The notes under the pieces: model-generated
Databases searched by the model: none
The model's input: the letters and a program-made list of their open reading frames with translations, nothing else
Told to the model about the DNA's origin: nothing
Translations under genes and position numbers: made by a program
NCBI GenBank assembly: GCA_049889215.1
Contig: JBMHDV010000004.1
Coordinates: forward strand, 30,828-94,827
Direction of reading: 5' to 3'
Source of the DNA: Candidatus Marinamargulisbacteria bacterium
GTDB taxonomy: Bacteria > Margulisbacteria > Marinamargulisbacteria > UBA817
DNA length: 64,000 nt
Shown here: positions 10,301 through 24,565 of the stretch, piece after piece
Layout: every line of letters starts with the position of its first letter
Position numbering within the stretch: position 1 is the stretch's first letter

Positions 10301-13089
10301 TGGAAAATTCGCTCTCTACTAGCACCCGGGTCTCTTACAAATAAATCATATTGCGCATTTGCTGTTACATTAATACCTACATTTGAATCTTTTGAAATTG
10401 ATACATTTGGGGTTACAAAATTACCTGATGTATAAATTTTAATTGGGGTTGGTTTCGTTGAATTGAATACAAGTCCCGAACGCTGCTGACCCAAATTATA
10501 AAAACCAAGCCCATAACCATCTGAAACATGAACAGACCCGTTTTTGATATCAATATTTGAACGAAGCCACCTTGAACTTAACCCAAACATGGTCTCACCA
10601 GTATAGCTACGCTGCACCCGAGCAAATAGTTGATCTTGTTGTTTAAAAAGAATATCTTTGCCCCAAGGGCCGGACTGAATTGTAAGGTTTCCATTATTCA
10701 ATTGTTCGATCATTACCGCTCGATCCTCCGCCTGGTCACCATAACAAATCCGGGAAGAATAATCATAAATACTACATGACCGAAAAAATTCATTCTTCAA
10801 ATAGATACCAGCTTGTGATTCATCCCCAAAGGTCATCAAGGATTTAGATCCTAACCGTCCACCAACATAGAATGGCAACTCTGGGGATACCCCATCTCCC
10901 ATAACAAGAATATTTTGGGAGCTCATTTTTAAAACGTCTACTTTATTTCCCATCGCATCATCCAATGAAATCAAAAACTGATTATTAACAACTTCCATAC
11001 CACCACCGACAGATTGAGATTGAAGAAATGAGCCGTTTTGATAAACCCCTTGAAAATGAATACCAGGCGGATCAACTGAAATCGATAGTTTCTTTTCATC
11101 GGCCGTGGCAAGATCAGATAAATACGCCGCTGTTTGGTGATTATCATCAACAAATACTGACAATGTATTATCGGGCAACGAATAACCGCTCAAGGTTTCA
11201 GGAACATTAATGAGCATATTATTTGAAGTGATGACTAATCGCTTTGACAACGCCACATTCATTAATCGGGAAGAGTGAGCCTCTTCATCAAATTGATCCA
11301 CAAAACTTGGCACCCACGCATCCCCATTCCATTTAAGGACCTGACCAATAATTACATTTTCTGATGCCATATGAAATGTTTTTGTTTGATCATCAAGTGC
11401 CAATGCACCCGTGGCATTATACGTTGTATTAGTATCCACCATTTGAAGTGTTTGCCACTGACCGTCTTTATATACTTCAAACGTGTCGTCAAAATAACGA
11501 ATCGTCCCTGAACTTGCAACAGCTTCACCACTTAAATGAATACTCCCGCTAACATTTAAAGATTCAATTAAGGAAGAGCGGTCAATTCCCATCTTTCCAT
11601 CAAATACCAAATGATTGGGTAAACTAGGAATTAACATTTGCCAGACACTCTCAGGGCTTTTTATATTTTTTATTAAAGATGCATCACCAATAAAGCCATC
11701 CGCAACAACCGACCCGCCAATCGCAAATTGGTTTCCACTTGGAACCGCATTTAAACCAACCCCATTATCTGCTTGAATTTGGATACTTCCTGAAACAGCT
11801 GATTGTGAATATTGATCTGTTAATCCAAAAACAACTGCATTAGCGTGCGATTCATCAACACGTACTTTTTGACCAAAAGCTATCGAGCCAGGGGCATTCA
11901 ATTCATGATTATTTCCACCCAACACCATGGCTCCATCACCGCGAACTACATTTTGAAACCCAGATACTATCGAGCCTTGACCATATGATTTATTATCAAA
12001 ACCGCCCAAAACCAGTGCATCTTGACTCGCTTGGTTTTGCATTCCACCAAGGATTACTGAATTTGAGGTTATGATTAAATTTTTCTGACCACCAGAAATA
12101 ATCGAATCCGGGCCCAAGATTTCATTTTCTGAACCGCCACCAATAATGGATGAATCTGCAACAACTCGATTATAGTAACCACCTGTAATAATAGAATATT
12201 TGCCTGACGCAACCCCAGAAAACCCCATCGAAATTGAATGATCACCACTAACATCATCATCCCAATAATTGGACGCCGTATAACCTATTCGAAGAATATC
12301 ACGATCACCATGCCACATCCATCGAGAGCCAGCTCCTGAGAATATATTAGATGTCGCCATTGAATTAGCTTGTAATAATAACGAACCATACGTTGTTAAA
12401 TGTGCATGTGGCGTACCAATTGTTGTTGGAGCGCCAATGAGGACGCGGCCAGTTGCATTAACCGTAACAATATTAAATTGCCCATTTTCAGATGATAACG
12501 AGTTATAATTATCTTCACCTTGATATCTTAAGTTAAATAACCTAGACCCATCACCAATAAATACACCTGTTGCATTTGCAGTTCCAACAATATCAAGCAT
12601 GGATTCCGGAGTTGCTTTTCCAACACCAAAACGCTGATTTGAATAATCAATCGAAAATTTATTAGAATCAATAAATCGGTTCGTACGCAACGCATTTGAT
12701 GACTTTACAACGTAGGGTATTGAGGCCAAAGGTAGTTCAGTAACCAATTCTTCATCAAATTGAATACGAATGTATATCGTATTACCTAGCTCAAAAAATG
12801 GAATTAATTCATCAGAAACATCCAAATTTGTTTGAAAATAATTATTTGTAACATCGATCTCTTTTTGAATTGATACAGTTGGAACCATTTGTGATTTTTC
12901 ATACAAAATAATCTCAGAAATAAACCGATTATTGATTTGTCGAAATGGGGATGGGGTCAAGATGCCATCCAATGAAATTTGAGTTGGCGCAGTCGCTTCA
13001 GTTGAATATGTAACCGCAGCCGACCCATCCAATGAGAATATGGTGCAATTAATAAAAATAAGTAGAAAAGCTGATTTTATAAGGTTCAT
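7366..13089 (-). CDS. Giant fibre-like secreted protein, paralogue A (1907 aa) with a tail-collar-like, HxH-rich C-terminal tip
   Basis: Signal peptide MNLIKSAFLLIFINCTIFSLDGSAA. Motifs include RFGVGKATPESMLDIVGTANATGVFIGDGSRLFNL, RIGINTNFPTTLLEVVG and KVGINTDPIDNFDVNVKG. A repeat block lies at aa 283-411, followed by GTIRYFDDTFEVYKDGQWQTLQMVDTNT. The C-terminal collar-like motif is PTGVIILWNSSGTIPAGWAECNG..CPNMDGRYV and the protein ends ..RVVRYIIKV. Its stop overlaps the start of paralogue B (ATGA). Confidence 0.9.
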   Translation of the reverse strand: MNLIKSAFLLIFINCTIFSLDGSAAVTYSTEATAPTQISLDGILTPSPFRQINNRFISEIILYEKSQMVPTVSIQKEIDVTNNYFQTNLDVSDELIPFFELGNTIYIRIQFDEELVTELPLASIPYVVKSSNALRTNRFIDSNKFSIDYSNQRFGVGKATPESMLDIVGTANATGVFIGDGSRLFNLRYQGEDNYNSLSSENGQFNIVTVNATGRVLIGAPTTIGTPHAHLTTYGSLLLQANSMATSNIFSGAGSRWMWHGDRDILRIGYTASNYWDDDVSGDHSISMGFSGVASGKYSIITGGYYNRVVADSSIIGGGSENEILGPDSIISGGQKNLIITSNSVILGGMQNQASQDALVLGGFDNKSYGQGSIVSGFQNVVRGDGAMVLGGNNHELNAPGSIAFGQKVRVDESHANAVVFGLTDQYSQSAVSGSIQIQADNGVGLNAVPSGNQFAIGGSVVADGFIGDASLIKNIKSPESVWQMLIPSLPNHLVFDGKMGIDRSSLIESLNVSGSIHLSGEAVASSGTIRYFDDTFEVYKDGQWQTLQMVDTNTTYNATGALALDDQTKTFHMASENVIIGQVLKWNGDAWVPSFVDQFDEEAHSSRLMNVALSKRLVITSNNMLINVPETLSGYSLPDNTLSVFVDDNHQTAAYLSDLATADEKKLSISVDPPGIHFQGVYQNGSFLQSQSVGGGMEVVNNQFLISLDDAMGNKVDVLKMSSQNILVMGDGVSPELPFYVGGRLGSKSLMTFGDESQAGIYLKNEFFRSCSIYDYSSRICYGDQAEDRAVMIEQLNNGNLTIQSGPWGKDILFKQQDQLFARVQRSYTGETMFGLSSRWLRSNIDIKNGSVHVSDGYGLGFYNLGQQRSGLVFNSTKPTPIKIYTSGNFVTPNVSISKDSNVGINVTANAQYDLFVRDPGASRERIFQLDAAKNSVNGLEFLVDENNDNSFDSDGETFAMTLSVDDDLDLTRNNASVLKIQQNNMIGFLDDSPSVNLSIKAPVTLLNQSGLYFKEVDGQTSYPAMVMDANELVIDSSNTIDVMTAEENVALEVGKNGVAVNKRQTISQILNQAIGFDVGGSMIVDGDIYNSLDDKIFPLDVKNDVGDNSLRMVKRIKINDASGLEFSGQNTAESPLKIAAKPYYNRIKLPDGTVFTATGNTPLRLVGKGITVSANNIVDRSVDGALTFDQIELINDLISGGEISSDLTIKGDFVVTEKIKGDASGLRGIPFRWEQVTRNSVDIPDPDDAPTDYYDEGEIYYKSGRIGINTNFPTTLLEVVGTSSINEAIASEGITVSNLVGSENIYLRSSHGLGFNSRKSSVLFGRHGDSLTDPSFERLLEIKNDSQFLLGAQSSSYLVDIGQSNPFDKTSVLFDGATGSSITLGRDQSLNIFRVLYDDTGTRTPVSFVNPNLQLQSSSDLLLYVNQNKQALKFNDQGQLGIFSSKIKNTLDVSGNVSIGFKEKVHSNSLAVNRNVGVGLDATTLPIYDLEVSGSVIVGERYSEEIPKGVFINGDGSYRLFVGTSNVIQDERVIANGDLSIKNGRLTLRNGMDDSLLIERNNPSNKHDVIEQLEADIGFKFNSYNGFSWNAFRDGSWQPNLILSPDAWLGVGGQPQVPFHVMDSDRDVQLEIKSGTSALVHLKHGSDQAIIGTASKGLSIKVGSSSFTNAELIIKNNKVGINTDPIDNFDVNVKGNLHADSYLISDRLNSSGFHEFQSVPTGVIILWNSSGTIPAGWAECNGSNGCPNMDGRYVKSVNASYNVKDGQNNFVSGGVKDQRMSDTYHSHTSVGHSHTVDDGKHKHTIDFASGGVSSKTTASSTAYASSKVGDTEEYTVLKPGITHNHSFNDNHSHDNITFEGGGHGSLHGSSETTNHSHTSAEEHGHDFDNRPKSRVVRYIIKVAES
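11857..12243 (-). repeat. Coding repeat block: ~9 units of the same 14-15-aa repeat in paralogue A
   Basis: YSIITGGYYNRVVADS / SIIGGGSENEILGPD / SIISGGQKNLIITSN / SVILGGMQNQASQDA / LVLGGFDNKSYGQG / SIVSGFQNVVRGDG / AMVLGGNNHELNAPG / SIAFGQKVRV. Confidence 0.7.
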
Positions 13090-13293: not shown

Positions 13294-14523
13294 TTAAGCC
13301 AAAAAATCTATTAATTTATGACATTTCTCATCGACAGATCGCAGCCTTAAATCAAATTTTTGATGAATATTCGCCAATTTTTTTCGGTAATTTCCATGCG
13401 CCTGTAAACACATGTGTCTTTTTAATGTTAAATAAAGGTCTTCAGACGACGAAACAATCGGAAAAATATCATTAAAATCATCAAAATTCGAATAAATACC
13501 ATCGTCGTATAATTCGAAAATAATGCTTGGTACTCGTGCATATAAAAGATCCGTCAATAAGGATGATTTACATAAAGTAATTGCTAAATCAGCTTGTTGA
13601 ATAGTAGATTCTAAATCCTCAGAAATAATAAATTCGTCAATTGAATATGTTTTTGCCAATCCGTAGTAAAATCCTCGTGTTTGATAGGCATTTTGTTCCA
13701 ATTTTGGATGATTTTTTAATATTATTCTTAACGGTTTTATTTTTGACAAATCACTCAAAAGCAAAAATAATTGATCAAAAAATGTCATTAATTTAAACTC
13801 ATTTTGAAAAATATTTTCAAATCTCCCCATACCTAACCAAGTATTAAAAATCGCGATGGTAAACATATTATTATCTCGTTTAACACAATCATTTGGCACA
13901 ATCATATTATCTAATGGTAAGCCGGTTTCAATAATTTGTGTTTGAGATTGATTAAGTTGATTACATTGATAACGCCAATGTCGAGAAGTGAGTTGGTTTT
14001 CCGAAATAATATAATCAGGAAATTTGAGCTCTGATGACGGAATCATTGTATTCGTACCCAGAATATTAACAGGAAAAAAATTCGGCGCATGTTCCAAAAA
14101 TATGGATTTCACATTCATTTCACGTGCCAAATCAATCAAATACATTTCTGATGTACAAATAAAAAGATAGTCAACATCATGGTTAACTAGCATCTCTTTA
14201 ACCAAGTGATAACGTGCAATCATCTCTAAAAAACAATCATTCAAAAAATCATGCATGGTATCATCAATTTCCCTATCAACAAAGTGCTTTAAATATGACT
14301 CTACATAGGTAAAATAGTCATCTCTTTCCGAATTATAAATAGAAAAAAGGTCATGTTTTGAGTATGGTTTTTGCTTATAAAAACAAATGTTTTTTTTACA
14401 CGAAAAATGTCTTGAATCAATATTTGTAACAAAATTAAAATGATGTATAAAATGTCTTGTTAGTGATTGAAAACGGTTGAAAATAAAACCAGAATTTCTG
14501 GGTGAGTACATTATCGTTTTCAT
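13294..14523 (-). CDS. Hypothetical protein, possibly a GT-B-fold glycosyl/glycerophosphotransferase-like enzyme (TagF/capsule-type layout)
   Basis: 409-aa ORF with a 4-nt ATGA overlap with the upstream gene. The C-terminal half has the order seen in TagF-like enzymes: FTIAIFNTW.. / LRIILKNHPKL / ADLAITLCKSSLLTDLLYARVPSIIFELYDDGIY. This rests on motif order only, with no confident family call. Confidence 0.35.
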   Translation of the reverse strand: MKTIMYSPRNSGFIFNRFQSLTRHFIHHFNFVTNIDSRHFSCKKNICFYKQKPYSKHDLFSIYNSERDDYFTYVESYLKHFVDREIDDTMHDFLNDCFLEMIARYHLVKEMLVNHDVDYLFICTSEMYLIDLAREMNVKSIFLEHAPNFFPVNILGTNTMIPSSELKFPDYIISENQLTSRHWRYQCNQLNQSQTQIIETGLPLDNMIVPNDCVKRDNNMFTIAIFNTWLGMGRFENIFQNEFKLMTFFDQLFLLLSDLSKIKPLRIILKNHPKLEQNAYQTRGFYYGLAKTYSIDEFIISEDLESTIQQADLAITLCKSSLLTDLLYARVPSIIFELYDDGIYSNFDDFNDIFPIVSSSEDLYLTLKRHMCLQAHGNYRKKLANIHQKFDLRLRSVDEKCHKLIDFLA

Positions 14524-15188
14524 CTAAAGTTTCCACCAACCATTAATTGAACTAAAAAATCGTTGTAACTCATCAACAACTTGGGAATCAATGGTGATAT
14601 TGATGTTGTAAATGACCAAGATGCAGTATTAATTGTTGGAAATGTATATTTAGAAGACTCTAAAAATGATTCAATCATCGCCGAGTTAAATGAAAAAGAA
14701 TTGAAACAACAGGGGCATGGCCCATAAAAATCTACCAATAATGTTACATCCGTACTTATTTCAAATTCATGGTCACAATGGTCACATTGACCTTTAAAAA
14801 TATAGGATGTCATCGGGAAAATAGAAACATAAATACTCTCAATACGAAATGGTTTAACCACCTTTTCATGTGCCTTAAACGCACCGTAAAATTCCTTAAC
14901 CACCGCCAATGAACTTGAGTGTGGAAAATGATAGCCCAACTCACAAATTAAAAACTGGCCCATCGAATTTAATTTTGTTGGCTTCATTTTTTGGATGTAA
15001 GTTAAAAAAAAGGTCAAACTCTCATTATATTGATAGCGAGAAAATTGGATAAACGCAAAGTCAAGTAACATTGGAATACGTTTTTCATTTGAAAGCTTAA
15101 AGAAATAATCAGTAGCGGCACTATAATTTCCAGCCAATCGATAAGCCTCAACCGGATTCGTTTTTCCCATATCAATTAATCTTAGCAC
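14520..15188 (-). CDS. Hypothetical protein with a helical N-terminal half and a Cys/His zinc-ribbon-like motif
   Basis: 222-aa ORF with a GTG start (ATG alternative at MGKTNP). It carries CDHCDH-x19-CPCC (GQCDHCDHEFEISTDVTLLVDFYGPCPCCFNSF). No recognisable family. Confidence 0.5.
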   Translation of the reverse strand: MLRLIDMGKTNPVEAYRLAGNYSAATDYFFKLSNEKRIPMLLDFAFIQFSRYQYNESLTFFLTYIQKMKPTKLNSMGQFLICELGYHFPHSSSLAVVKEFYGAFKAHEKVVKPFRIESIYVSIFPMTSYIFKGQCDHCDHEFEISTDVTLLVDFYGPCPCCFNSFSFNSAMIESFLESSKYTFPTINTASWSFTTSISPLIPKLLMSYNDFLVQLMVGGNFR

Positions 15189-15263: not shown

Positions 15264-18014
15264 CTAGAATTCACACGTAGCACCAGCGGGTGAAATAACT
15301 GCTCGAGAATTATTTCCTGTACAAAAACATAATGCGATCACATTCGTTCCATTTAACATTTCATTTTTTGTATATAAAGATCCTGCACTATCTGCATCAC
15401 ATGGGTCAGAGTTACTAGGGTTTAATTTTAAAACATCATTAAGTTCTACTGTTGCATTAAAAGTTACAGCGTTGTTTTGAATAGCATTTAACTGTACATC
15501 CGACAGTTCAGACCCATTCCCAAAAAACTTTGTCGCATTCACGTTACCATTAACATCCAGCTTAAATGCGGTTGCAGGATCTTTGCCAATACCGACATTT
15601 CCATTCGCCCGAATGGATAGTAATTGAGATGAAGAATCATCTTTTTCTCGCACAAAATCAATGATTTTAGTATCACTAATAGCAACGTTATGAAATGTTA
15701 AATTAAAATGATTCGATGATGTCATTGTTGTATATCGGTTACTAGCTGTAGTGTCTTCCAAACGTAATTGTGGAATATTAGAGTTAGATTCACCAATATG
15801 TAACGATGCCTGTATATTTGAAGTAACAGCCCCAATTCCAACCAATCCATCATTATTTAAAACCAATTGCCTCGCGGGCGTACCATCTGAAGGTGTCATA
15901 TACCAAACTGGCACATCCGTTAATTGACTACCATCACCAACAAATGCATTGGCAGTAATGGTTGCTGACGCCTCAATCTCGGCCACATTAAGCTTTCCAG
16001 TAATTTGAGCACTTCCCTCGACGTCCAATTTATCATCAGGGTTCTCCACCCCTACACCAACATTTGAATGAATATAAAATTCACCATTATCATTAGCCGT
16101 CATCTCAGCTACCGTGTTCGCTTTGTACTTAAATAACATTGAAGAGTTTGAATTATTTTGAATTAGCGCTTTATTTTGATCATTAAAGCCAATTAAAAGC
16201 GCGGATGGATCCACTGCATTGGATTGAATTTTAATAATCGCGGGATGATCAACGGTCTGTTTGATAAACAAGGATGAGTCTTTGGGATCCGCATCATTAT
16301 TTCCACCAATACCAACCCGTTTATTTTCAACATATACTGATTGATTGGTACTATCACCTTGCCATAAACTTGAAATATTAGTGATAAATCGGCCGTCCCC
16401 AACCAAATAATTAAACTCAAGCTGCCCAGAATCAGTAATTTTAGCAGCCACAATATCGCCTGCGGACCATATTGTATGATCCTCAACTTGTGGTGCATTT
16501 TCAGGTGGAAATTTTCGATTTTCTTCATCGTCTTTAATAAATCTAGGCACATTCATATTGACGTCATTAAGACCAACCATCACCCCATTTTTAGCACGAA
16601 TTAAAAACTGATTGGCTTTATTATTTCTAAATTCATCTGTAGACGACGTATCGGCAAAAATAAACACCCCATCTGTCGAGGAATTTGAATTACCAACCCG
16701 TGAGTTCTGACCTAATACATAACTATATTGGCCATAAATTTCATGACCATTTCCGCCAAGAATTGCTGAGTAATTTGAACCGGCATGAATAACATTATTT
16801 TTACCACCTAAAATTGATGCATGATCTGATGTTGCTAATATTTGATTATTTTGACCAGCACCAATAAAGACATAATCTGACCGTGTTTCATTATTATTTC
16901 CACCGGCAATCACCGTTCCACCATTCACAGCAGTATTCACATTGTTACTTTTTCCTGATAAAACACCAGACTCTTTTACAGCGACTGTATTTTCTAAACC
17001 GCCTGCAACCACAGAATACGGTCGTGACACAGTATTATCACCACCTGCGGCACTACCATAATCGCCTGAAACTTCATTCCCTTTTCCAAAAGCAACAGAA
17101 TAGTTACCACTATTTTCAGAGCTCCATTTACTACTACTCGATTCACCAGCACGAAAAAAACCTTTTTGAGAATTCCAAATCAGTTGTTTTTCACTATTGT
17201 AGGTCCCTGTTGACGCCAATGATGTACCAACTAATTCAATATTACTATTCCCTTTAATTGCAGCATGATCCACTTTTAAATTACCAGATACGTGCAATGG
17301 CTCTTGTATATTTGCAGTAACATCAATATTAACGCCAACATTACCAACAGTGGTTACAAATACAACATCACGCGTCGGAGCATTATTGTCTGTTCGAGAT
17401 GGCGCATCATAAGGAGATAACGAATAGTCATCCAAATTAACCAATTTCAAATAATCCAATTGGTGTACATTATAGCCATCTGGACTATGAAGTTCACCCG
17501 TTGCATTTACAGAAGTTATATTTGCTGATCCCACCACCTGAAAAGGAACAGTTAAGTTTTGAGTAATGCCAATACCTACGCGGTGATTAACGGTATTTAC
17601 TTTCATCCATGATTCCGTATATTCCAATTCTCTAGCATAATCTGAATACTTAGCAACAACAGCACCTGGGACACTAATTAAGGGAACCGTAACGGTATCA
17701 TCAATTTCCTGGAAACTTAAATTTAAAAATACATCGTCACCTTTAAATAAATGATAATTTAATGGCCGCTTTTGCCCTAAAACCTCAGACACCTTACCTT
17801 GGGTGATATAAATTGTATGAGACTCATTCCAAATGGCCTCATTTAATGGTTGATCTCGTGATGTCAATAACGAAAAAGTAACAGTGTAATTTCCTTCCAT
17901 TACCCCAGTTTCAGTATTGCCCAAAAGGAATTGCACATTCACATTTCCAGTGACAGCATGCACGTGAATACTACCTAATATAAAGATACTTAGTAAAATA
18001 CGAATTAGTTTCAT
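15264..18014 (-). CDS. Fibre-like secreted protein, paralogue C (916 aa) with a Cys-rich C-terminal tip instead of a collar
   Basis: Signal peptide MKLIRILLSIFILGSIHVHA. Motifs include RVGIGITQNLTVPFQVVG, NVGVGVENPDDKLDVEGSAQITG, AFVGDGSQLTDV and FFGNGSELSDV. The repeat block reads SVAFGKGNEVSGDYGSAAGGDNTV..ILGGKNNVIHAGSNYSAILGGNGHEIY. The protein ends ..DPCDADSAGSLYTKNEMLNGTNVIALCFCTGNNSRAVISPAGATCEF. Confidence 0.88.
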   Translation of the reverse strand: MKLIRILLSIFILGSIHVHAVTGNVNVQFLLGNTETGVMEGNYTVTFSLLTSRDQPLNEAIWNESHTIYITQGKVSEVLGQKRPLNYHLFKGDDVFLNLSFQEIDDTVTVPLISVPGAVVAKYSDYARELEYTESWMKVNTVNHRVGIGITQNLTVPFQVVGSANITSVNATGELHSPDGYNVHQLDYLKLVNLDDYSLSPYDAPSRTDNNAPTRDVVFVTTVGNVGVNIDVTANIQEPLHVSGNLKVDHAAIKGNSNIELVGTSLASTGTYNSEKQLIWNSQKGFFRAGESSSSKWSSENSGNYSVAFGKGNEVSGDYGSAAGGDNTVSRPYSVVAGGLENTVAVKESGVLSGKSNNVNTAVNGGTVIAGGNNNETRSDYVFIGAGQNNQILATSDHASILGGKNNVIHAGSNYSAILGGNGHEIYGQYSYVLGQNSRVGNSNSSTDGVFIFADTSSTDEFRNNKANQFLIRAKNGVMVGLNDVNMNVPRFIKDDEENRKFPPENAPQVEDHTIWSAGDIVAAKITDSGQLEFNYLVGDGRFITNISSLWQGDSTNQSVYVENKRVGIGGNNDADPKDSSLFIKQTVDHPAIIKIQSNAVDPSALLIGFNDQNKALIQNNSNSSMLFKYKANTVAEMTANDNGEFYIHSNVGVGVENPDDKLDVEGSAQITGKLNVAEIEASATITANAFVGDGSQLTDVPVWYMTPSDGTPARQLVLNNDGLVGIGAVTSNIQASLHIGESNSNIPQLRLEDTTASNRYTTMTSSNHFNLTFHNVAISDTKIIDFVREKDDSSSQLLSIRANGNVGIGKDPATAFKLDVNGNVNATKFFGNGSELSDVQLNAIQNNAVTFNATVELNDVLKLNPSNSDPCDADSAGSLYTKNEMLNGTNVIALCFCTGNNSRAVISPAGATCEF

Positions 18015-18078: not shown

Positions 18079-19011
18079 TTAAATTGGTTTAAGAAGTGAC
18101 ATGCATTGATGATAAACAGATTCCGCCATAGGAACTTCAATATCACACGCTTTTGCATACGCAATAAAATTACCTAAAATGGCATCCAATTCGATGGGTT
18201 GGTTTGACTCATAATCTAAACACATACTGGTTTTATAAGGTGCCATATTTCGTGTATTTAATATCATTTTTTCACGAAACTGTTCAGAGATTCGAACTCC
18301 AGCAATATTAGCAACGTTGATGACTTCATCCATTATCATAACCACTTGATGAAACGAATCTGAAGAATTCAATAATTGATCTGTTGATACGCCACCATGC
18401 AATACAGATAATGGGTTAAACGGTGCATTCCAGACTAGTTTTTTCCAAATTGCTAAATCAATATTTGATTCGATAGACACATCAATCTCACTTTTTTCAA
18501 AGACATTTAATGCTTGTTGCGCTAACAATGCATCCTCACCCGTTTGCTTAATTCCAATTGTTAATGGCCCATAATCAATATGTTCAATGTACTGATAATC
18601 ATGTCGATAACAACAAATAAAAGCAAGTGCCCTTAATATTGGTTGCCGAATCATTTTCATTAGTTGATCTTCAATAAAAATACCATTTTGAATTAAAACA
18701 ACCACCGTTTGTTTAGAAAGATACGGAGAGATGAGTTCTGGCAAATTAATTTCCGGATGCACTTTAGTTGCCACAAGCAGCATATCCAATTCATATGACA
18801 ACCCTTCGCCCAATGGATGAACGACATCGGGTGTCCATTCATGTCCTCCCAATACAGAGTCAATTTTAATTGTTGGGTTAGTGTATGCATCAACTGAACG
18901 GGTAAAAAGTGTAAAATGACGATCTCGATCACTCAGTAATGACGTATAATAGACACCAACAGCCCCAGCCCCAATTAATCCAACTCTAAACGTTGATCCC
19001 ATTGATATCAA
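18079..19011 (-). CDS. panE: 2-dehydropantoate 2-reductase family protein (ApbA/PanE)
   Basis: N-terminal Rossmann motif VGLIGAGAVGVYY. The C-terminal domain motif is KTSMCLDYESNQPIELDAILGNFI, as in ketopantoate reductases. 4-nt overlap with the upstream gene. Confidence 0.75.
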   Translation of the reverse strand: MISMGSTFRVGLIGAGAVGVYYTSLLSDRDRHFTLFTRSVDAYTNPTIKIDSVLGGHEWTPDVVHPLGEGLSYELDMLLVATKVHPEINLPELISPYLSKQTVVVLIQNGIFIEDQLMKMIRQPILRALAFICCYRHDYQYIEHIDYGPLTIGIKQTGEDALLAQQALNVFEKSEIDVSIESNIDLAIWKKLVWNAPFNPLSVLHGGVSTDQLLNSSDSFHQVVMIMDEVINVANIAGVRISEQFREKMILNTRNMAPYKTSMCLDYESNQPIELDAILGNFIAYAKACDIEVPMAESVYHQCMSLLKPI

Positions 19012-21278
19012 TCAGTAATGTTGTAACCCTGTTCCCAATCAAGCAAATAATTTACACGTTGATCATAACGACGAACTTGCTTAAAATAAAGCGCAAATTC
19101 AAAACGTTTAATTGGCTTCTTACTAACAACCATATCCTCACTATCAATAACCCCCGAATTATTTAGCATTTTAAACGCATCAGCTAACGATACTTTGTCA
19201 TTTGGTTTAAAGGTACCATCAGCAAATGCAAATGTGATCCCTGCGTCAACGGCAGCAGATATTAGTCCCGCATCTGGATCTGTTTTTGGAACATCTAAAA
19301 ACGGATCAAAATCAAGCTGTTTAGGTTCAACATCCAATTGTCGTGCAATCGCCAGGGTTACATCACGACGAGTCATTTCTTCGTCGGGATGAAACAAGCC
19401 ATCATCCTTACCATCAACGAATCCCAATGTCGCTAAAAACTCAATATCTCGTCGATACTTTGCAAACTTTGGAATGTCAGGAAATCGCTTCATACACAAC
19501 AATCTTGCGTGATACCGCATACGCTGACCATTTTGTGTTTTAACATCAATAAAGACTATTTGCTTGCCATAATCAAGTTCAATGGACGATGAAAAAGCAT
19601 TATTTTTATCTGTTTCCAAACGTTTTCCATTCACAGATATCTCTTCTACATATGGTGATGCATATCCCAATACTGTTATCGCATCATTGTATACAACTGT
19701 TTGATCTGACGGGAAAATCGGTTCGACAAAAAATGAAACTGACGATGTGGGTGCTTGATTCCCAATTTTATCTGCAGCAATAATATCAAACGCTAACATT
19801 TTATCAGGAAGCGGAGCACCTGTTTGAAGAGATTCAGGGAGGTCAACCACCGCAGAATAACGGTTTTTACCTATTTCTTTTAATTGAATAACTTGATTCC
19901 CTGAAACCAATTTGGCTTGGGAAAGTGGTTCATTTGAATGTAATTCAACCGCAACTCTATTTTGAAGTGCATTCACTATTGGGGTGATTTCAGGTGGTGT
20001 TTGATCGTAATGAATCACAACAGGGATTGATGGTTTTGAAAGATCCTTATTCCCTGATTTGGATCGAAATGTAATATGATTATAGCCAGAGTTGATGTAA
20101 AGGTCGTTGACCTCCCACTTCCCATTATTATCAGCACGAACTTGGCCAATTAAACTCGCGCCATTATAAATATACAACATTGCATTTCGGTCAGATGTTC
20201 CATTAAAATCAACGAAAGCTGAACTTGTTTCTAAAGATTTTTCTGGTGTAAGTACAATGGGTCGAGAGTCTGTTGATTGTCCCAGAAATGATAAACTAAT
20301 GGTATGAGATGCATCATCTGAGCGAGGAAATGGATACATTGTATAGTTATAATCAAGGTTCATCCCATAGATACTATTACCAAATCCAGCAACACGATCT
20401 AAAAAGAGTCCCATACCGAAGTGATAAACAAACTGTTGTTCCTGCAAGAAATCATAAGTCGTAGACCCTCTTAATTTTAATGAATCACCCAAGGACTGTT
20501 CCAAACCAATCATAAAATCCCGAATTCGCAATGTTTGAGCATAAACACCGGTATGCAAAACTGTTGTGTAATTTAACATGGTTATTTTTGCACCTGCATA
20601 CAATTGTCGTTCCATTTGTTGCTCCTGAGATGTGCCAATCGTCGAATCATATTCCCATGCAGGTAAATTTGTAGACAAAGCACCAATAATGGATGAGCCA
20701 AAATCAATCCGGTTAAATAGCCCTGAATCAAAAAAAGAAGTACCAATAAATCCCACGTCCAATCCATATGCGGGTGAACGACGAGTTGATCCAATGACTT
20801 GGCTTAACACACTTATACCAAACCCATAGTTAAAATAATCTGCAAATAAAAAGCCTTCGTTTAACTTACGACCATAACCAAAATGTAAAACATCAAATCC
20901 AGAAGAGAATGAACCAACATCATACACTACATTATTTACCAATGATGTTTGGATGAACCCTGCGGTAACATTCGATCCATAAGCGATTGAAAAAACATGA
21001 TCATTTGTAGGAAAAACAGCGATAACATGACGATAATCAAATTGAGCGGATAACTGATAGTTTGAAATGGAGAATTGATTAAATGAAATACCACCCAAGG
21101 ACGCAGGATTAACCATCACGTTTCCAATTGCCGCGGATTCATAAGGCGTAATTCTACCGAACGAAGCTTCTCGAGCGGATGTCATCGATGTCTGGATATT
21201 TAGTGCTGGCATTTGAGTAGACGATACGCTCTGTATCGAAAAAACAATCACCAATAACGCAATACACCTAACCATCAT
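19008..21278 (-). CDS. Outer-membrane protein: N-terminal PorV/FadL-like beta-barrel, three Ig-like domains and C-terminal SLH domains
   Basis: Signal peptide MMVRCIALLVIVFSIQSVSS. The PorV-like N-terminal signature is SAREASFG..ESAAIGNVMVNPASL, followed by ~300 aa of alternating Y/F/G-rich strands. Ig-like segments follow (DFNGTSDRNAMLYIYNGASLIGQVRADNNGKWEV). Two clear SLH motifs are present: FPDIP..YRRDIEFLATLGFVDGKDDGLFHPDEEMTRRDVTLAIARQL and FLDVPKTDPDAGLISAAVDAGITFAFADGTFKPNDKVSLADAFKML. Confidence 0.75.
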   Translation of the reverse strand: MMVRCIALLVIVFSIQSVSSTQMPALNIQTSMTSAREASFGRITPYESAAIGNVMVNPASLGGISFNQFSISNYQLSAQFDYRHVIAVFPTNDHVFSIAYGSNVTAGFIQTSLVNNVVYDVGSFSSGFDVLHFGYGRKLNEGFLFADYFNYGFGISVLSQVIGSTRRSPAYGLDVGFIGTSFFDSGLFNRIDFGSSIIGALSTNLPAWEYDSTIGTSQEQQMERQLYAGAKITMLNYTTVLHTGVYAQTLRIRDFMIGLEQSLGDSLKLRGSTTYDFLQEQQFVYHFGMGLFLDRVAGFGNSIYGMNLDYNYTMYPFPRSDDASHTISLSFLGQSTDSRPIVLTPEKSLETSSAFVDFNGTSDRNAMLYIYNGASLIGQVRADNNGKWEVNDLYINSGYNHITFRSKSGNKDLSKPSIPVVIHYDQTPPEITPIVNALQNRVAVELHSNEPLSQAKLVSGNQVIQLKEIGKNRYSAVVDLPESLQTGAPLPDKMLAFDIIAADKIGNQAPTSSVSFFVEPIFPSDQTVVYNDAITVLGYASPYVEEISVNGKRLETDKNNAFSSSIELDYGKQIVFIDVKTQNGQRMRYHARLLCMKRFPDIPKFAKYRRDIEFLATLGFVDGKDDGLFHPDEEMTRRDVTLAIARQLDVEPKQLDFDPFLDVPKTDPDAGLISAAVDAGITFAFADGTFKPNDKVSLADAFKMLNNSGVIDSEDMVVSKKPIKRFEFALYFKQVRRYDQRVNYLLDWEQGYNITD

Positions 21279-24200
21279 TAATACACCGCCAACTTGGTTG
21301 TTGAAACCACACGTTTACCATCATTTCCAACAGCTGTCATTTTAATGTAATAATTTCCAGCACTAATAAATTTTCCATTTGATAATAATTTTGCAGGCCA
21401 TTTTTTTATTTGATAATCAAGATCAAATGGTTCAGAATCTAGTCGGGTTACTTCACGACCAGTTGAATCAAATATTTTAAAACTTACTGATGCTGGCTGA
21501 GTCAGAGAAAACCCGATGGTTAAGCCATCGGTCTGAATGGAAGGAGAATATGGATTCGGATAAACCAAAAGTTTCTCTATTTGTAATTCTGAACTTGTAA
21601 AAAACACTATTGGAGCTTGTGGATAGGCTTGGCCAAATAAATCATTGGCCATGATTGTAACTTGACCACTACTTTGTCCAATAGACTGGATAATCAATTC
21701 CCCTTTTGTTACGTCATAACTGAAGTAATTATCAGATGATCCTGATGAGATTTGAGATTCAGCAGGCAACAACTGTCCATTTAATTGCACTTGAATACTC
21801 GACGGATCAACATCGTGGCCTTTATTAGCGAATGTTAACTTAAGCTCTGCATTTTGAGGAACAGATTGATAATTTTTAAATGGCATGAATTGATTATTAA
21901 CCTGTATTTGCGCCGAAGAAACATACCCAGGGAGTGTCCATGAATAAACCTTATTGGTTGTCGAGATTGATGGCGTTATTTTCGTTCCAGTTGTACCACT
22001 AAACGATACAGCTGATTGAAAGTTAGTTCCCGCACCTTTGGATCGAGTTAACCGTGATGGGTGTTCCAAATAACACTTACCTGCACAATCTGTATCTTGA
22101 ACAACATAATCAACATCGTAATCAATTAGATAATTCCCTTCAGAGGTAATGTCAGCTGCCGAAACTTGAAATACAAGCTGCTTTGTAGCTGGCGAAATAA
22201 ATGGATCAATAAACCCAATACCACTTCCAACACCTGATTTAAATGTCGATGAAAATTCATAACTACGATCTTTTCCTTTAACACCGTCCAAATAAAATTT
22301 GGGGCCACCCACTGGGGCACCTGCATCTGCTGAAATTTTCACAGGTGATTCAGTACTTTCTGCAGTTATAACGGTTGTAACATCAAATACAGAGTCCTGT
22401 GTGATCACATTTGAATCAGAAATGTCAGATGACAGGCTTGTAACTTTTAGTAAATGAGGCTCAACATCATACGTATACGGGGTTGGCGGGTTCGGCACCA
22501 TTCCAGCAACAACACCGCCATCCATAGAAATATTTGATAATTGAATGGATAAAGCATCATCAGCTTGGTTAACACGTTGCCCCAAATCAAACAATAATAA
22601 TAATTTTTGACCTGTACCTTGAGGTAAAGAAACATTGGAAATGGTTGCAAGCGACGCTGAACTAAATGATGACGTGGAACTTAAAAACACATCCGTAGAG
22701 TCCAATACCCCGTTTAAGTTTTTATCTAAGTATAGAGACAATTTGGATACCCCATTGCTATTTTCACTAAAATAACCAGGAGACTTAAATTCAAATGAGG
22801 CATTTGTTACTTGTCGGTAAACATCAACATCAAACACATACATCAAAACATCATACATTCCGGCAACCAATCGGTAAGTAGCACCGCCGCCTAAAGAACA
22901 GTCTGCTTGTTCAGAGGTATTACAAAATAGGCCAACATCTTTATCCAAAATAATACCATCATTAGAATCAATTTTTGCATCCAACGGTGTTTTTACTAAA
23001 AAGTCGGGATCAACAACGGTGATGTCTTGTGTTGGAGTGACACTTAATGGAAATGAAGATCCAATACTAATATCAGTGCCTGTAAAACTGGCTTTAGTAT
23101 CAACACTTATATTCAGACTTACGGATTGACCAGCACTCATATTTGATCCAAAATCAGCCAGAATATAAAAAGTTTGTTCAACACCACTAGCTACATCAAC
23201 CTTAACATTATCATATGTAAATGTTCCTTTAGATGAATCATTGATTAAGAAGTCAACCTCTAAATCCTCATCTAAATTTGGATTATTACCAGGACCATCT
23301 TTCCCATAGCCACTATACTCACCACCACTATCATCCTTAATCCATTTTAAATCTGTTATTCCGGTATTATTCCCATTTGAGTCAAATGATTTTGAGTCAT
23401 TAGATATCACCAATGTTCTAAGTCGAGTAGTAATGCCAACCGATTTCGCTACAAATTTTAAAATGGGAATATCCGTTAATCCCGCGGCAACATTCATGCT
23501 GGGAAAAATATTTTCAATTGATTTAATGATCATACCGGCCAAAGACACCGATCGATTGTTAAAATCTTTAGCAGCAACATTCAGTGGCCCATATGAATAA
23601 TTGGAATTTACACCATTACCAGTAATGGTTGATACCTTAGCATTAATTTGAGTCACAACATCGTTAACTTCGATATTTGTACTAGGACCAAGGTCAACCA
23701 CGACATAAAACGTTGTCGCTGCTGTAATTTTTCGATTATCGCCATCATCTGACGAAAACGAAAACGTTGCTAAGGAAGTTGAATTAAATGTAACTGGATC
23801 ATTTTCCGTATTGGTAATCGACTTTAGCAATGTATCATCATCTTTATTAAAGTCAGCACCACTTGTTTCTTTATATAAATGAAGGCCAGAAACACCATTA
23901 TTAGAACCTGTAGAATCAAACGTTGAAGCACTGTTGGATATTGAAATATTCTCAATGAAATACCCTTCAGAATCAGGCGTTAGTTGAAATTGAAGCATTT
24001 TAAACTTTGTCGCATCTGAGTCATATATTAAATTAGTCGTACCTGACAAATCTGTAAAAGATGCATCCACACCAACAATATCGATATCTGCTTCACTTAC
24101 CGTAATTGCCCCTGTATTATCCTCTGTTACATCAATTGTCATTTCATCTGCAATTGAAGTTGTTGTCCCTGTTGTAAATACAAGTAAAATTGTTTTTGTG

Positions 24201-24565
24201 GTAGTTGTAATTGATTCATTAATGGTAAATGTAATAGTATTTGTAGCGCTCGAGGTATAGTCTGTTGTAGTTGCTGAAATTTTAGTATCCCCAGAATCAA
24301 ACAACAAATCTCCATCATCAAAATACAAGCTTAAATCAGTAATTTTATCGAGTCCTGTGGTATGAAAATCAGTACCATCACTTGTAATTTTTATTGAAGT
24401 AAGACTATCAGTACCGTCAGAGACGACCGTAAAAAACAATGCACCAGTCGGTTCACCACGAACCACTCTACCTGAATTAATTTGGGTAAGTCCCGTGTAA
24501 CTTAATACAGCAAACCCATCAACCGAAAAAAGCAATAAGAATAAGCCAATAAGTAAGCGCTTCAT
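21278..24565 (-). CDS. Secreted 1095-aa repeat protein with a C-terminal FlgD-Ig-like / T9SS-type sorting domain
   Basis: Signal peptide MKRLLIGLFLLLFSVDGFA. Four internal ~170-190-aa modules are followed by Ig-like segments. The C-terminus reads LLVYPNPYSPS..LTIGFSLTQPASVSFKIFDSTGREVTRL..AGNYYIKMTAVGNDGKRVVSTTKLAVY. The start abuts the yebC stop (TAGATG) and the stop overlaps the next start (TAATG). Confidence 0.8.
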   Translation of the reverse strand: MKRLLIGLFLLLFSVDGFAVLSYTGLTQINSGRVVRGEPTGALFFTVVSDGTDSLTSIKITSDGTDFHTTGLDKITDLSLYFDDGDLLFDSGDTKISATTTDYTSSATNTITFTINESITTTTKTILLVFTTGTTTSIADEMTIDVTEDNTGAITVSEADIDIVGVDASFTDLSGTTNLIYDSDATKFKMLQFQLTPDSEGYFIENISISNSASTFDSTGSNNGVSGLHLYKETSGADFNKDDDTLLKSITNTENDPVTFNSTSLATFSFSSDDGDNRKITAATTFYVVVDLGPSTNIEVNDVVTQINAKVSTITGNGVNSNYSYGPLNVAAKDFNNRSVSLAGMIIKSIENIFPSMNVAAGLTDIPILKFVAKSVGITTRLRTLVISNDSKSFDSNGNNTGITDLKWIKDDSGGEYSGYGKDGPGNNPNLDEDLEVDFLINDSSKGTFTYDNVKVDVASGVEQTFYILADFGSNMSAGQSVSLNISVDTKASFTGTDISIGSSFPLSVTPTQDITVVDPDFLVKTPLDAKIDSNDGIILDKDVGLFCNTSEQADCSLGGGATYRLVAGMYDVLMYVFDVDVYRQVTNASFEFKSPGYFSENSNGVSKLSLYLDKNLNGVLDSTDVFLSSTSSFSSASLATISNVSLPQGTGQKLLLLFDLGQRVNQADDALSIQLSNISMDGGVVAGMVPNPPTPYTYDVEPHLLKVTSLSSDISDSNVITQDSVFDVTTVITAESTESPVKISADAGAPVGGPKFYLDGVKGKDRSYEFSSTFKSGVGSGIGFIDPFISPATKQLVFQVSAADITSEGNYLIDYDVDYVVQDTDCAGKCYLEHPSRLTRSKGAGTNFQSAVSFSGTTGTKITPSISTTNKVYSWTLPGYVSSAQIQVNNQFMPFKNYQSVPQNAELKLTFANKGHDVDPSSIQVQLNGQLLPAESQISSGSSDNYFSYDVTKGELIIQSIGQSSGQVTIMANDLFGQAYPQAPIVFFTSSELQIEKLLVYPNPYSPSIQTDGLTIGFSLTQPASVSFKIFDSTGREVTRLDSEPFDLDYQIKKWPAKLLSNGKFISAGNYYIKMTAVGNDGKRVVSTTKLAVY

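What the first reader, a model, noticed from the sequence alone, without database searches (positions are those of the whole stretch)
19008..21278. PorV/FadL-like outer-membrane barrel fused through three Ig-like domains to C-terminal SLH domains, the reverse of the OmpM/Slp layout
The N-terminal ~310 aa after the signal peptide carry a PorV-type entry motif (SAREASFG..ESAAIGNVMVNPASL) and barrel-like alternating strands. Three Ig-like segments follow, then two clear SLH repeats and a partial third. Known SLH-containing OM tethers (OmpM of Negativicutes, Slp of Thermus, cyanobacterial porins) place SLH at the N-terminus and the barrel at the C-terminus. Here the order is inverted and the spacer is Ig-like rather than coiled coil. 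This suggests an OM-to-peptidoglycan/SCWP tether of a different design, possibly combined with a cargo-shuttle barrel.
Basis: partly seen in the sequence, partly recalled or inferred. Interest (0 to 1): 0.65.

Follow-up and report, generated by a model that had tools for sequence, protein, structure and literature searches.

The report
PorV-like barrel fused to SLH anchor
A marine Margulisbacteria gene encodes an outer-membrane barrel of the PorV/PorQ type joined through three Ig-like domains to a cell-wall-binding SLH module, and it always sits next to a large protein with a type-IX-secretion-like tail, which suggests one chain that both ties the outer membrane to the wall and holds a surface protein.

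Summary
ORF 19008..21278 (-) encodes 756 aa in this order: signal peptide, hatch-like segment with an invariant NPA motif, β-barrel (aa 68-334), three β-sandwich modules, and a single-chain SLH module (two full repeats and a partial third). Pfam SLH scores 63.4 bits (cut-off 20.8). The barrel model has pLDDT 94.4, and its best PDB matches are PorV chains of the T9SS translocon (TM 0.65-0.68). The query clade matches no PorV model. Profile-linked relatives score progressively higher on NCBIfam PorV_fam, up to 93 bits (cut-off 90).

The family has 118 representative clusters. Every member that carries a taxon label is Margulisiibacteriota.

New finding: in all 23 genome loci and 5 distant relatives, the gene directly upstream encodes a large secreted protein (about 890-1320 aa). 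Here its stop overlaps the barrel gene's start (TAATG). Wherever DNA was available, this partner ends in a type-A T9SS-like C-terminal domain (YPNPY…KLAVY).

Best reading: a trans-envelope anchor. The barrel's outer loops hold the partner's tail, as PorQ holds PorZ, and the periplasmic Ig-SLH arm binds wall polymer. Function, topology and any T9SS or csaB in the genome remain untested. I rate it a new variant of known kinds. It is undescribed in the searchable literature.

The parts
21216..21278 (-). Signal peptide of the barrel-Ig-SLH protein (aa 1-21, MMVRCIALLVIVFSIQSVSST)
   Evidence: Read from the sequence. AF2 predicts helix 2-16 followed by coil. The position is conserved in the homolog alignment.
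21078..21215 (-). Hatch-like N-terminal segment (aa 22-67) with the family motif Q..NxQT..SA..ASFGR.TP…GN…NPASLGG. N57-P58-A59 are invariant.
   Evidence: AF2 predicts three short helices here. Relatives carry the canonical PorV/PorQ form NPQ..M.GAR..SLG…NPA. FadL NPA/N33 hatch mutants are among the structural matches.
20277..21077 (-). PorV/PorQ-family (FadL-superfamily) outer-membrane β-barrel, aa 68-334
   Evidence: The AF2 model has pLDDT 94.4 and pTM 0.88. Foldseek matches PorV at TM 0.65-0.68. A profile search finds 118 representative clusters. Of 52 relatives, 41 hit NF033709 PorV_fam, with a score gradient that reaches 93 bits.
20007..20258 (-). Ig-like β-sandwich module 1 (aa 341-424)
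   Evidence: AF2 secondary structure, pLDDT about 85-90. Foldseek matches bacterial Ig-like adhesin repeats such as SiiE and Bap.
19713..19988 (-). Ig-like β-sandwich module 2 (aa 431-522)
   Evidence: AF2 model, pLDDT about 90. Big_13 and Big_6 hits occur in some relatives.
19494..19712 (-). Ig-like module 3 (aa 523-595), Glucodextran_B type, directly before the SLH module
   Evidence: Pfam PF09136 scores 34.2 bits against a cut-off of 27. It is present in 41 of 52 relatives.
19011..19487 (-). Single-chain SLH module (aa 598-756): two full SLH repeats, a partial third, and the conserved C-terminal …DWEQGY. TRAE-position motifs are TRRD (R637 invariant), SLAD and KRFE (R725 invariant).
   Evidence: Pfam SLH scores 63.4 bits in 2 stretches. 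AF2 predicts three helix pairs. Foldseek matches 3pyw at TMt 0.55 over 181 columns.
21278..24565 (-). Partner gene: a 1095-aa secreted protein. Its TAA stop overlaps the barrel gene's ATG by one base. Orthologs lie directly upstream in all 23 genome loci and in 5 distant relatives.
   Evidence: Searches show the TAATG junction. One search shows the synteny. Searches cover the distant relatives.
21281..21598 (-). C-terminal domain of the partner (aa 990-1095), like a T9SS type-A CTD, ending …TTKLAVY-COOH
   Evidence: TIGR04183 scores 19.4 bits here, below the cut-off of 23. Of 22 orthologs, 14 hit TIGR04183, best E 1.4e-7. Pfam Por_Secre_tail or FlgD_ig hit 10. A local CTD HMM finds this domain only in the partner protein of each locus.

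Best explanation
The gene encodes a trans-envelope anchor built from known parts in a new order. A Sec signal peptide takes the protein to the periplasm. The N-terminal domain inserts into the outer membrane as a monomeric PorV/PorQ-family (FadL-superfamily) barrel with an NPA-bearing hatch. Both ends of a bacterial OM barrel face the periplasm, so the C-terminal extension hangs into the periplasm. That extension is a rod of three Ig-like modules, roughly 10-12 nm long, ending in a single-chain SLH module. The SLH module binds peptidoglycan-linked, probably pyruvylated, secondary cell-wall polymer. On the outer face, the barrel's extracellular loops hold the type-A-CTD-like tail of the roughly 1100-aa protein encoded directly upstream and translationally coupled to it. 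This is how PorV holds cargo and PorU, and how PorQ holds PorZ. The pair would therefore tie the outer membrane to the wall and fix a large surface protein to that tether. What is shown: the domain architecture, the folds, the family, the gene pairing, the CTD-like tail, and transcription in seawater. What is inferred: the topology, the SLH ligand, barrel-CTD binding, the surface location of the partner, and the route by which the partner crosses the outer membrane.
For: Architecture and folds are supported. The barrel's best PDB matches are PorV chains at TM 0.65-0.68. Family membership is supported in three ways. A profile of the barrel finds 118 representative clusters, most of them 727-782 aa and ending in …DWExGY. 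Of 52 relatives, 49 have SLH and 41 hit PorV_fam. PorV_fam scores fall along a gradient of 93, 89, 72, 58, 41, 38, 26 and 0 bits towards the query clade. Pairing: a partner ortholog lies directly upstream in 23 of 23 genome loci, usually with stop/start overlap. The same holds for distant relatives P0096, P0104, P0107 and P0110 and for an un-fused 404-aa relative. The junction here reads TAATG. CTD: 14 of 22 partners hit TIGR04183. A CTD HMM hits only the partner in the window and in each locus. Precedents from the literature: the CTD binds the extracellular loops of PorV (PMC10994853). PorQ anchors PorZ at the surface, and the CTDs of PorU and PorZ are retained (PMC10947112). Cargo genes are adjacent to their shuttle-barrel genes in F. 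johnsoniae (PMC12618676). BamG, a FadL homologue, holds BamH through its loops (PMC12578637). In diderm Terrabacteria, SLH is periplasmic and tethers the OM. Triple SLH modules in one chain are the classical ligand-binding form, whereas OmpM assembles three chains (PMC10628300; bioRxiv 10.1101/2021.05.31.446380). CsaB and SLH are listed for three non-marine Margulisbacteria genomes. Diderm context: an Omp85-family ORF and DsbD are in the window, and MlaD/E and a TonB-dependent receptor are in relatives' loci. Expression: contigs 100% identical to the window occur in four seawater metatranscriptomes, and one crosses the gene junction.
Against: The query clade itself matches no PorV, PorQ or FadL sequence model. 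The window's partner CTD scores below the TIGR04183 cut-off, at 19.4 against 23 bits. No T9SS translocon, sortase or csaB gene is in the 64-kb window, and none could be sought genome-wide. It is therefore unknown how the partner would reach the surface and whether the SLH ligand exists. The SLH2 repeat lacks the Arg of the TRAE-type motif. No complex model could be made. The strand parity of the barrel was not resolved. Contig-level RNA evidence cannot exclude DNA carry-over.
Confidence: 0.5

Rival explanations
1. It is a plain OM-to-wall tether, a functional analogue of OmpM. The barrel serves only as a membrane anchor, or also as a FadL-like channel for hydrophobic molecules. The upstream protein is co-transcribed but is not bound by the barrel.
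For: The SLH, spacer and barrel logic is the same as in OmpM. The NPA hatch motif is invariant, as in FadL transporters. OmpM is known to combine tethering with nutrient uptake (PMC10628300).
Against: The barrel is closer to PorV (TM 0.65-0.68) than to FadL (0.45). The pairing with a CTD-bearing protein is retained down to about 20% identity, and even in an un-fused relative without SLH. Co-transcription alone does not easily explain that.
Confidence: 0.25
2. It is a specialised PorV/PorQ paralogue of a complete T9SS-like system encoded elsewhere in the genome. It collects its one cognate cargo from a SprA/Sov-type translocon, and the SLH arm merely fixes this shuttle in place.
For: The relatives match PorV_fam, PorQ and PorV2 models. 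The partner has a type-A CTD-like tail. Cognate cargo-shuttle gene pairs are known in Bacteroidota. In P. gingivalis the PorP/PorE subcomplex is proposed to anchor the T9SS to peptidoglycan.
Against: The papers read here describe T9SS as a Bacteroidota/FCB system. No paper links it to Margulisbacteria. No T9SS core gene lies in the window or in about 450 kb of related loci with precomputed Pfam hits. The CTD was found in only one protein per locus. None of this is a genome-wide test.
Confidence: 0.15
3. It is a device like an inverse autotransporter. The N-terminal barrel exports the C-terminal Ig-SLH passenger to the cell surface, as intimin and invasin export their Ig-like domains. The SLH module then binds a surface glycan or an S-layer.
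For: The linear order of N-terminal barrel followed by Ig-like repeats looks like intimin/invasin.
Against: There is no hit to inverse-autotransporter models. The fold matches are 14-stranded PorV, FadL and OmpG barrels, and a conserved hatch segment precedes the barrel, which is not the 12-stranded intimin barrel. The autotransporter NalP matches only at TM 0.27-0.31. In characterised diderm SLH-barrel proteins the SLH lies in the periplasm.
Confidence: 0.05

Closest known systems
PorV and PorQ (T9SS carrier and anchor barrels of Bacteroidota; NCBIfam NF033709 PorV/PorQ family)
   Same: Both have a FadL-superfamily barrel with an N-terminal GAR…NPA motif. PorV is the best structural match (8gl6_F, 6h3i_F). 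Relatives of the query hit PorV_fam. Both partner with a protein carrying a type-A-like CTD, and PorQ-PorZ and PorV-PorU are stable barrel-CTD pairs.
   Different: PorV and PorQ are barrels only, about 350-400 aa, with no Ig or SLH extension. They act with the SprA/Sov translocon and the PorU sortase in Bacteroidota. Here the host is a Terrabacteria phylum. No equivalog cut-off is reached (PorV 250, PorQ 220, PorV2 325 bits). The query clade is too diverged to hit any of these models.
OmpM / Slp / SlpA and cyanobacterial SLH-porins (OM tethers of diderm Terrabacteria)
   Same: One polypeptide joins an OM β-barrel to a periplasmic SLH module through an elongated spacer. The expected role is the same: tethering the OM to peptidoglycan or SCWP.
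   Different: The order is reversed: OmpM runs SLH, coiled coil, barrel, and this protein runs barrel, Ig x3, SLH. The spacer is Ig-like rather than coiled coil. The barrel is PorV-like and most likely 14-stranded and monomeric (neither was tested here), rather than a 16-stranded trimeric porin (30-stranded in SlpA). The SLH module is a multi-repeat unit in one chain rather than one repeat per chain assembled by trimerisation.
Single-chain triple SLH modules of monoderm surface proteins (B. anthracis Sap 3pyw, SbsB, P. alvei SpaA)
   Same: The SLH repeats sit in one chain. Foldseek matches 3pyw at TMt 0.55. Arg is conserved at the TRAE-type position in repeats 1 and 3.
   Different: Those modules are N-terminal on S-layer or enzyme proteins of bacteria without an outer membrane. 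Here the module is C-terminal, the third repeat is partial, and the module is attached to an OM barrel.
PorP/SprF-type shuttle barrels with adjacent type-B CTD cargo genes, and the PorP-PorE peptidoglycan anchor of the T9SS
   Same: A cargo gene lies next to the gene for its cognate OM barrel. In the PorP-PorE case a barrel is coupled to a peptidoglycan-binding module.
   Different: Those use a different barrel family (PorP_SprF) and a type-B CTD. The peptidoglycan binder PorE is a separate OmpA_C-type lipoprotein. Here the barrel and the wall-binding module are fused, and the wall binder is SLH.
Intimin/invasin inverse autotransporters
   Same: An N-terminal barrel is followed by Ig-like repeats.
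   Different: Those have a 12-stranded barrel that exports the passenger, plus an N-terminal LysM domain. No sequence or fold match to them was found here.

Membership tests
SLH domain (Pfam PF00395) | Match to the SLH model above the gathering score | tested here: met
   The score is 63.4 bits against a cut-off of 20.8, in 2 stretches from aa 598. Of 52 relatives, 49 also match.
SLH domain (Pfam PF00395) | Three-repeat SLH fold with conserved TRAE-type motifs that bind pyruvylated SCWP | tested here: inconclusive
   There are three helix pairs, and Foldseek matches 3pyw at TMt 0.55. The motifs are TRRD, SLAD and KRFE, with R637 and R725 invariant. The third repeat is partial, and ligand binding was not testable.
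PorV/PorQ family (NCBIfam NF033709) | Sequence match to the family model at or above its 90-bit cut-off | tested here: not met
   The query has no hit at E<=1. Relatives score 93.1 (P0122), 89.2, 71.5, 58, 41, 38 and 26 bits, and P0022 scores none. Membership is therefore only transitive, through the barrel profile.
PorV/PorQ family (NCBIfam NF033709) | FadL-type OM β-barrel fold like PorV | tested here: met
   The AF2 model has pLDDT 94.4. Matches are 8gl6_F at TMq 0.68 and TMt 0.64, and 6h3i_F at 0.65 and 0.64, ranked first and second. The exact strand count was not resolved.
PorV/PorQ family (NCBIfam NF033709) | N-terminal GAR…NPA signature | tested here: met
   NPA is invariant in 80 sequences. 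GAR is present in relatives and has degenerated to SAR/SAD in the query clade.
PorV/PorQ family (NCBIfam NF033709) | Works with a CTD-bearing substrate | tested here: inconclusive
   A CTD-like partner is always encoded directly upstream. Physical binding was not tested.
Type IX secretion system (as a system) | Presence of the core genes SprA/Sov, PorK/L/M/N, PorT and PorU | not testable with these tools
   None is in the 64-kb window or in the neighbours of relatives. Whole genomes could not be searched.
T9SS type-A C-terminal domain (TIGR04183) for the partner protein | Match at or above the 23-bit cut-off at the extreme C-terminus | tested here: inconclusive
   The window copy scores 19.4 bits, below the cut-off. 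Of 22 orthologs, 14 hit at E<=0.01, best 1.4e-7. The YPNP motif and the position at the very C-terminus are conserved.
OmpM / Slp family | N-terminal SLH, coiled-coil stalk and C-terminal porin barrel | tested here: not met
   The order is reversed, the spacer is Ig-like, and the barrel is PorV-like. 16-stranded porins match only at TM 0.32-0.39.
OmpM / Slp family | SLH plus an OM β-barrel in one protein (the operational definition used by Witwinowski et al.) | tested here: met
   Under that definition this protein would be counted as OmpM. Whether the OmpM entries listed for non-marine Margulisbacteria are this family could not be verified.
FadL / Toluene_X (PF03349) | Match to the family model and a FadL-like fold | tested here: not met
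   The query has no Pfam hit. Only 2 of 52 relatives hit, weakly, at 0.0016. The fold match is at superfamily level only, TM 0.43-0.48.
Inverse autotransporter (intimin/invasin) | 12-stranded IAT barrel with an exported C-terminal passenger | tested here: not met
   There is no model hit. No intimin or invasin barrel is among the top 50 fold matches, and the classical autotransporter NalP matches at TM 0.27-0.31.

The most novel reading that the evidence does not exclude
The two genes form a self-contained surface-layer anchoring module that is ancestral or parallel to the T9SS attachment complex and works without a SprA/PorKLMN machine. The PorV-like barrel both helps its one cognate CTD protein across or onto the outer membrane and bolts it, through the Ig-SLH arm, to the cell wall. 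In that case the partner would be the main surface (S-layer-like) protein of Margulisbacteria. PorV/CTD recognition would then predate, or have evolved independently of, type IX secretion, in a sister phylum of the Cyanobacteria.
Probability: 0.15. Interest if true: 0.85.

Novelty: new variant of a known kind. Interest (0 to 1): 0.62.

Why it matters
Two envelope paradigms are normally treated separately and assigned to different halves of the bacterial tree. One is SLH-based outer-membrane tethering, typified by OmpM in Terrabacteria. The other is PorV/PorQ-CTD cargo handling, typified by T9SS in Bacteroidota/FCB. Here both occur in one polypeptide and its obligate neighbour, in a phylum sister to the Cyanobacteria.

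If the mechanism holds, three things follow. First, it shows a second and differently built solution to OM-wall tethering: a monomeric barrel, an Ig rod, and a multi-repeat SLH module in one chain. Second, it extends PorV-type CTD recognition beyond the phyla known to have T9SS, which bears on how T9SS attachment evolved. Third, surveys that define OmpM as 'SLH plus any barrel' may be pooling unrelated architectures.

The pair is small, conserved and transcribed in seawater. That makes it a tractable target for structure prediction of the complex and for heterologous expression.

Tried and rejected
- Direct Pfam and NCBIfam scans of the query for PorV, FadL or PorQ found nothing at E<=1. The link had to be made by fold and by profile.
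- PDB sequence searches with the barrel profile and the partner profile gave only non-significant hits: Csm6 at 0.62, and the PorU C-terminus at 0.32.
- The genome-contig scan with the 52-sequence alignment failed because no block was conserved enough. The rerun with 12 sequences used a single SLH-region motif, so the taxon list is not exhaustive.
- Two profile searches of the 5.8-billion-protein set were throttled by the word pre-filter. They returned mainly the already known close clade or unrelated SLH proteins. I could therefore not show whether the 'OmpM' accessions listed for non-marine Margulisbacteria (OGI11026.1, GBR76314.1, OGI05610.1) belong to this family.
- In the Witwinowski supplementary table both Marinamargulisbacteria genomes are all NA, probably because they had no proteome. 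That says nothing about OmpM or CsaB in this clade.
- The inverse-autotransporter reading was considered and rejected on fold grounds.
- A flagellar role was considered because two distant relatives sit next to fliK/flgE/fliMNOPQR-like genes and the partner hits FlgD_ig. I set it aside because the marine clade lacks that synteny, and because in the 22 partner orthologs T9SS type-A CTD models match more often than FlgD_ig.
- The barrel strand count could not be settled.
- The metatranscriptome data are assembled contigs, so relative expression and operon structure are only hinted at.


Full report
**1. What is at the coordinates**

ORF 19008..21278 on the minus strand encodes a 756-aa protein. 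The window has about 38% G+C, and all close homologs come from Marinamargulisbacteria / Margulisiibacteriota MAGs and SAGs, at 44-99% identity. Related DNA and RNA come from seawater metagenomes and metatranscriptomes.

Pfam finds SLH (PF00395) at 63.4 bits against a cut-off of 20.8, in two stretches from aa 598. It also finds Glucodextran_B (PF09136) at 34.2 bits against a cut-off of 27, at aa 523-587. Nothing is found for the first 340 residues, even at E<=1. In a 16-sequence alignment the N-terminal 335 aa and the SLH part are the best-conserved regions.

**2. The N-terminal domain is a PorV-like barrel**

The full-length AF2 model has mean pLDDT 76.7. It predicts a run of β-strands at aa 68-332, three β-sandwich modules at aa 341-595 (pLDDT about 90), and three helix pairs at aa 598-756. 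Its barrel-type PDB matches are PorV chains of the T9SS translocon: 8gl6_F and 6h3i_F at TMt 0.55-0.56. FadL and FapF score lower. The SLH part matches B. anthracis Sap SLH 3pyw at TMt 0.55.

I then built a profile of the N-terminal domain alone (A2) and searched 1.84 billion representative proteins. This gave 118 hits at E<=1e-3 and 74 at E<=1e-10. Most are 727-782 aa and end in …DWExGY like the query.

With 80 of these as the alignment, the barrel-only model reaches pLDDT 94.4 and pTM 0.88. Its two best PDB matches are again PorV, at TMq 0.68 / TMt 0.64 and 0.65 / 0.64. Next come 14-stranded barrels: FadL, OmpG, TodX and the FadL-like BAM subunit. 16-stranded porins reach only TM 0.32-0.39.

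DSSP lists 15 β-elements, one of which (aa 117-139) is 23 residues long. A closed antiparallel barrel needs an even number of strands, and the structural neighbours argue for 14. I could not inspect the coordinates, so the count is unresolved.

Residues 22-67 form three short helices and carry the family signature. N57-P58-A59 are invariant across all 80 sequences. More distant members have the canonical PorV/PorQ form NPQ..M.GAR..SLG…NPA. The NPA hatch motif is a FadL-family hallmark, and FadL 'delta NPA' and N33A mutant structures are among the fold matches.

**3. Sequence-level link to PorV/PorQ**

Of 52 full-length relatives at 19-36% identity:
- 49 carry SLH and 41 carry Glucodextran_B.
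- 41 hit NCBIfam NF033709 PorV_fam, best E 3.4e-28.
- 33 hit T9SS_PorQ, and 19 hit PorVQ2.

Individual PorV_fam scores form a gradient: 93.1 bits (P0122, above the 90-bit cut-off), 89.2, 71.5, 58, 41, 38, 26, and nothing for P0022 or the query. No equivalog cut-off for PorV, PorQ or PorV2 is approached.

The protein therefore belongs to a diverged branch of the PorV/PorQ family. It is not an ortholog of PorV or PorQ, and the query's own clade has drifted beyond the reach of the curated models.

**4. Distribution**

Among GTDB species representatives, 23 loci encode the full-length architecture. They are labelled Margulisiibacteriota, Marinamargulisbacteria or just 'bacterium'. Three are labelled Rickettsiales or Actinomycetota but share the same synteny, so they are probably mislabelled bins. 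Every more distant member that carries a label is also Margulisiibacteriota.

The genome scan used a single peptide motif, so it is not exhaustive. No paper in the searchable library combines PorV or PorQ with SLH, or T9SS with Margulisbacteria. The main genomic paper on the phylum does not discuss the envelope.

Witwinowski et al. defined OmpM operationally as SLH plus any β-barrel and reported OmpM, SLH and CsaB in three non-marine Margulisbacteria genomes. This family would satisfy that definition. I could not verify whether their accessions are this family.

**5. The conserved partner**

The gene directly upstream (21278..24565, minus strand) encodes a 1095-aa protein with a signal peptide. 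Its TAA stop overlaps the barrel gene's ATG by one base, as TAATG.

In all 23 genome loci an ortholog of this protein lies directly upstream, usually with the same kind of overlap. yebC precedes it in 18 of them. The downstream genes are conserved only among the closest relatives.

The same arrangement holds for four distant SLH-bearing relatives, P0096, P0104, P0107 and P0110, at about 20-23% identity. It also holds for a 404-aa relative that has the barrel but no SLH. That relative's 1054-aa neighbour ends …YPNPY…KLAVW.

The conserved part of the partner is its C-terminal 500 aa or so. Its last 100 aa or so are a type-A T9SS-like CTD:
- TIGR04183 scores 19.4 bits in the window copy, below the 23-bit cut-off.
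- 14 of 22 orthologs hit TIGR04183 at E<=0.01, best 1.4e-7.
- Pfam Por_Secre_tail or FlgD_ig hit 10.

A local HMM of this tail finds it only in the partner protein, both in the window and in each fetched locus. This includes the distant loci, at E 1e-12 to 1e-14. There is one weak exception, at 2e-5, in L009. The tail always ends in an aromatic residue.

**6. How it most likely works**

The following is established in the literature:
- OM β-barrels have both termini in the periplasm.
- In diderm Terrabacteria the SLH of OmpM, Slp and cyanobacterial porins lies in the periplasm and binds peptidoglycan or pyruvylated SCWP.
- Classical ligand-binding SLH modules have three repeats in one chain, whereas OmpM supplies one repeat per chain of a trimer.
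- Substrate CTDs bind the extracellular loops of PorV.
- PorQ anchors PorZ at the surface, and the CTDs of PorU and PorZ are retained.
- Cargo genes often sit next to their cognate shuttle-barrel gene.
- BamG, another FadL homologue, holds a surface lipoprotein through its loops.

Putting these together, the most likely mechanism is a trans-envelope anchor:
- The PorV-like barrel sits in the OM, most likely as a monomer, as reported for FadL-type barrels; its oligomeric state was not tested here.
- Its C-terminal three-Ig rod spans the periplasm. The length of roughly 10-12 nm is an estimate from typical Ig domain size.
- The single-chain SLH module binds wall polymer. Arg at the TRAE position is invariant in repeats 1 and 3 (R637, R725).
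- The outer loops hold the CTD of the co-translated partner.

A barrel that is probably monomeric, carrying a multi-repeat SLH in cis, is the logical counterpart of a trimeric porin carrying one SLH per chain.

The organism looks diderm. The window has an Omp85-family ORF and DsbD, and relatives' loci have MlaD/E and a TonB-dependent receptor.

The gene is transcribed in situ. Contigs 100% identical to the window in four seawater metatranscriptomes cover 18961-21383, and one of them crosses the junction with the partner gene. The neighbouring genes were not recovered. Contigs show presence only.

Everything about binding, topology and the partner's export route is inference.

**7. Rivals**

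- A plain tether, possibly with FadL-like transport. This is possible, but it does not explain the invariant pairing, which persists even without SLH.
- A specialised shuttle of a full T9SS encoded elsewhere. This cannot be excluded without whole genomes. No core gene is in the window or in neighbouring genes of relatives.
- Inverse-autotransporter-like export of the Ig-SLH arm. This is rejected on fold grounds.

**8. Verdict**

The thing is a new variant built from known kinds: a PorV/PorQ-family barrel, Ig spacers, an SLH module, and a type-A-like CTD partner. It is widespread in one candidate phylum and is annotated only as 'S-layer homology domain-containing protein' or 'hypothetical'. I found no description of it in the searchable literature.

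Noticed in passing
window 1670..7369, 7366..13089 and 15264..18014 (all minus strand): Three very large ORFs of 1899, 1907 and 916 aa lie downstream of the module. The two largest overlap stop-to-start. They share an N-terminal region of about 400 aa with each other and with downstream ORFs in L001-L004. They have only sub-threshold β-roll / ice-binding-like or YadA-head hits. They are probably paralogous surface proteins. None carries the partner's CTD.
   Followed up: partly
L025 8001-19801, L026 and L027 (distant relatives P0096 and P0104): In two distant lineages the partner + barrel-SLH pair lies directly upstream of a flagellar cluster: a FliK-like Flg_hook protein, a FlgE/F/G-like protein, and FliM, FliN, FliO, FliP, FliQ and FliR. 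The barrel proteins there are 1266-1310 aa, with extra Ig and SLH repeats. Whether this is more than synteny is unknown.
   Followed up: no
window 56171..57136 (+): A short (321 aa) Omp85-superfamily ORF has only the barrel part (33 bits, cut-off 24) and no POTRA region. It follows a Na+/alanine symporter gene and lies near a DsbD homolog (52330..54186). Both are consistent with a diderm envelope.
   Followed up: no
window 18961..21383 versus flanks (RNA runs X11-X14): In four seawater metatranscriptomes, assembled contigs 100% identical to the window cover only the barrel-SLH gene and the last 100 nt or so of the partner gene. They do not cover panE, the rest of the partner gene or yebC. This may mean the barrel gene is the more abundant transcript, but contig data cannot show absence.
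   Followed up: partly
partner protein C-terminus, window 21281..21300, and all orthologs: The CTD-like tail always ends in an aromatic residue (…KLAVY, KFAVY, RLAIY, KLAVW). This resembles the C-terminal β-signal of OM proteins. It could be a strand that docks onto the barrel, or it could be a coincidence.
   Followed up: no
L003 7027-7485 and 7492-9357; L013 and L023 (MAG SP317); L010, L018, L019: In L003 the barrel gene is split into two ORFs, probably by a frameshift or assembly error. MAG SP317 has two full copies, each with its own yebC and partner gene, so it is probably a mixed bin. Three MAGs labelled Rickettsiales or Actinomycetota share the Margulisbacteria synteny, so they are probably mislabelled.
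   Followed up: partly
window 13294..14523 and 14520..15188 (minus strand): Two overlapping ORFs of 409 and 222 aa lie between the large surface-protein genes. They have no Pfam hit and no BLASTP homolog in any of the fetched loci.
   Followed up: no
window 31572..36269 (minus strand): This is an ordinary hrcA-grpE-dnaK-dnaJ heat-shock operon. Elsewhere the window holds standard housekeeping genes: argG/argH and an OTCase, mfd, pepA, a PFK-family kinase and EF-P. There is no csaB and no T9SS core gene in the 64 kb.
   Followed up: yes
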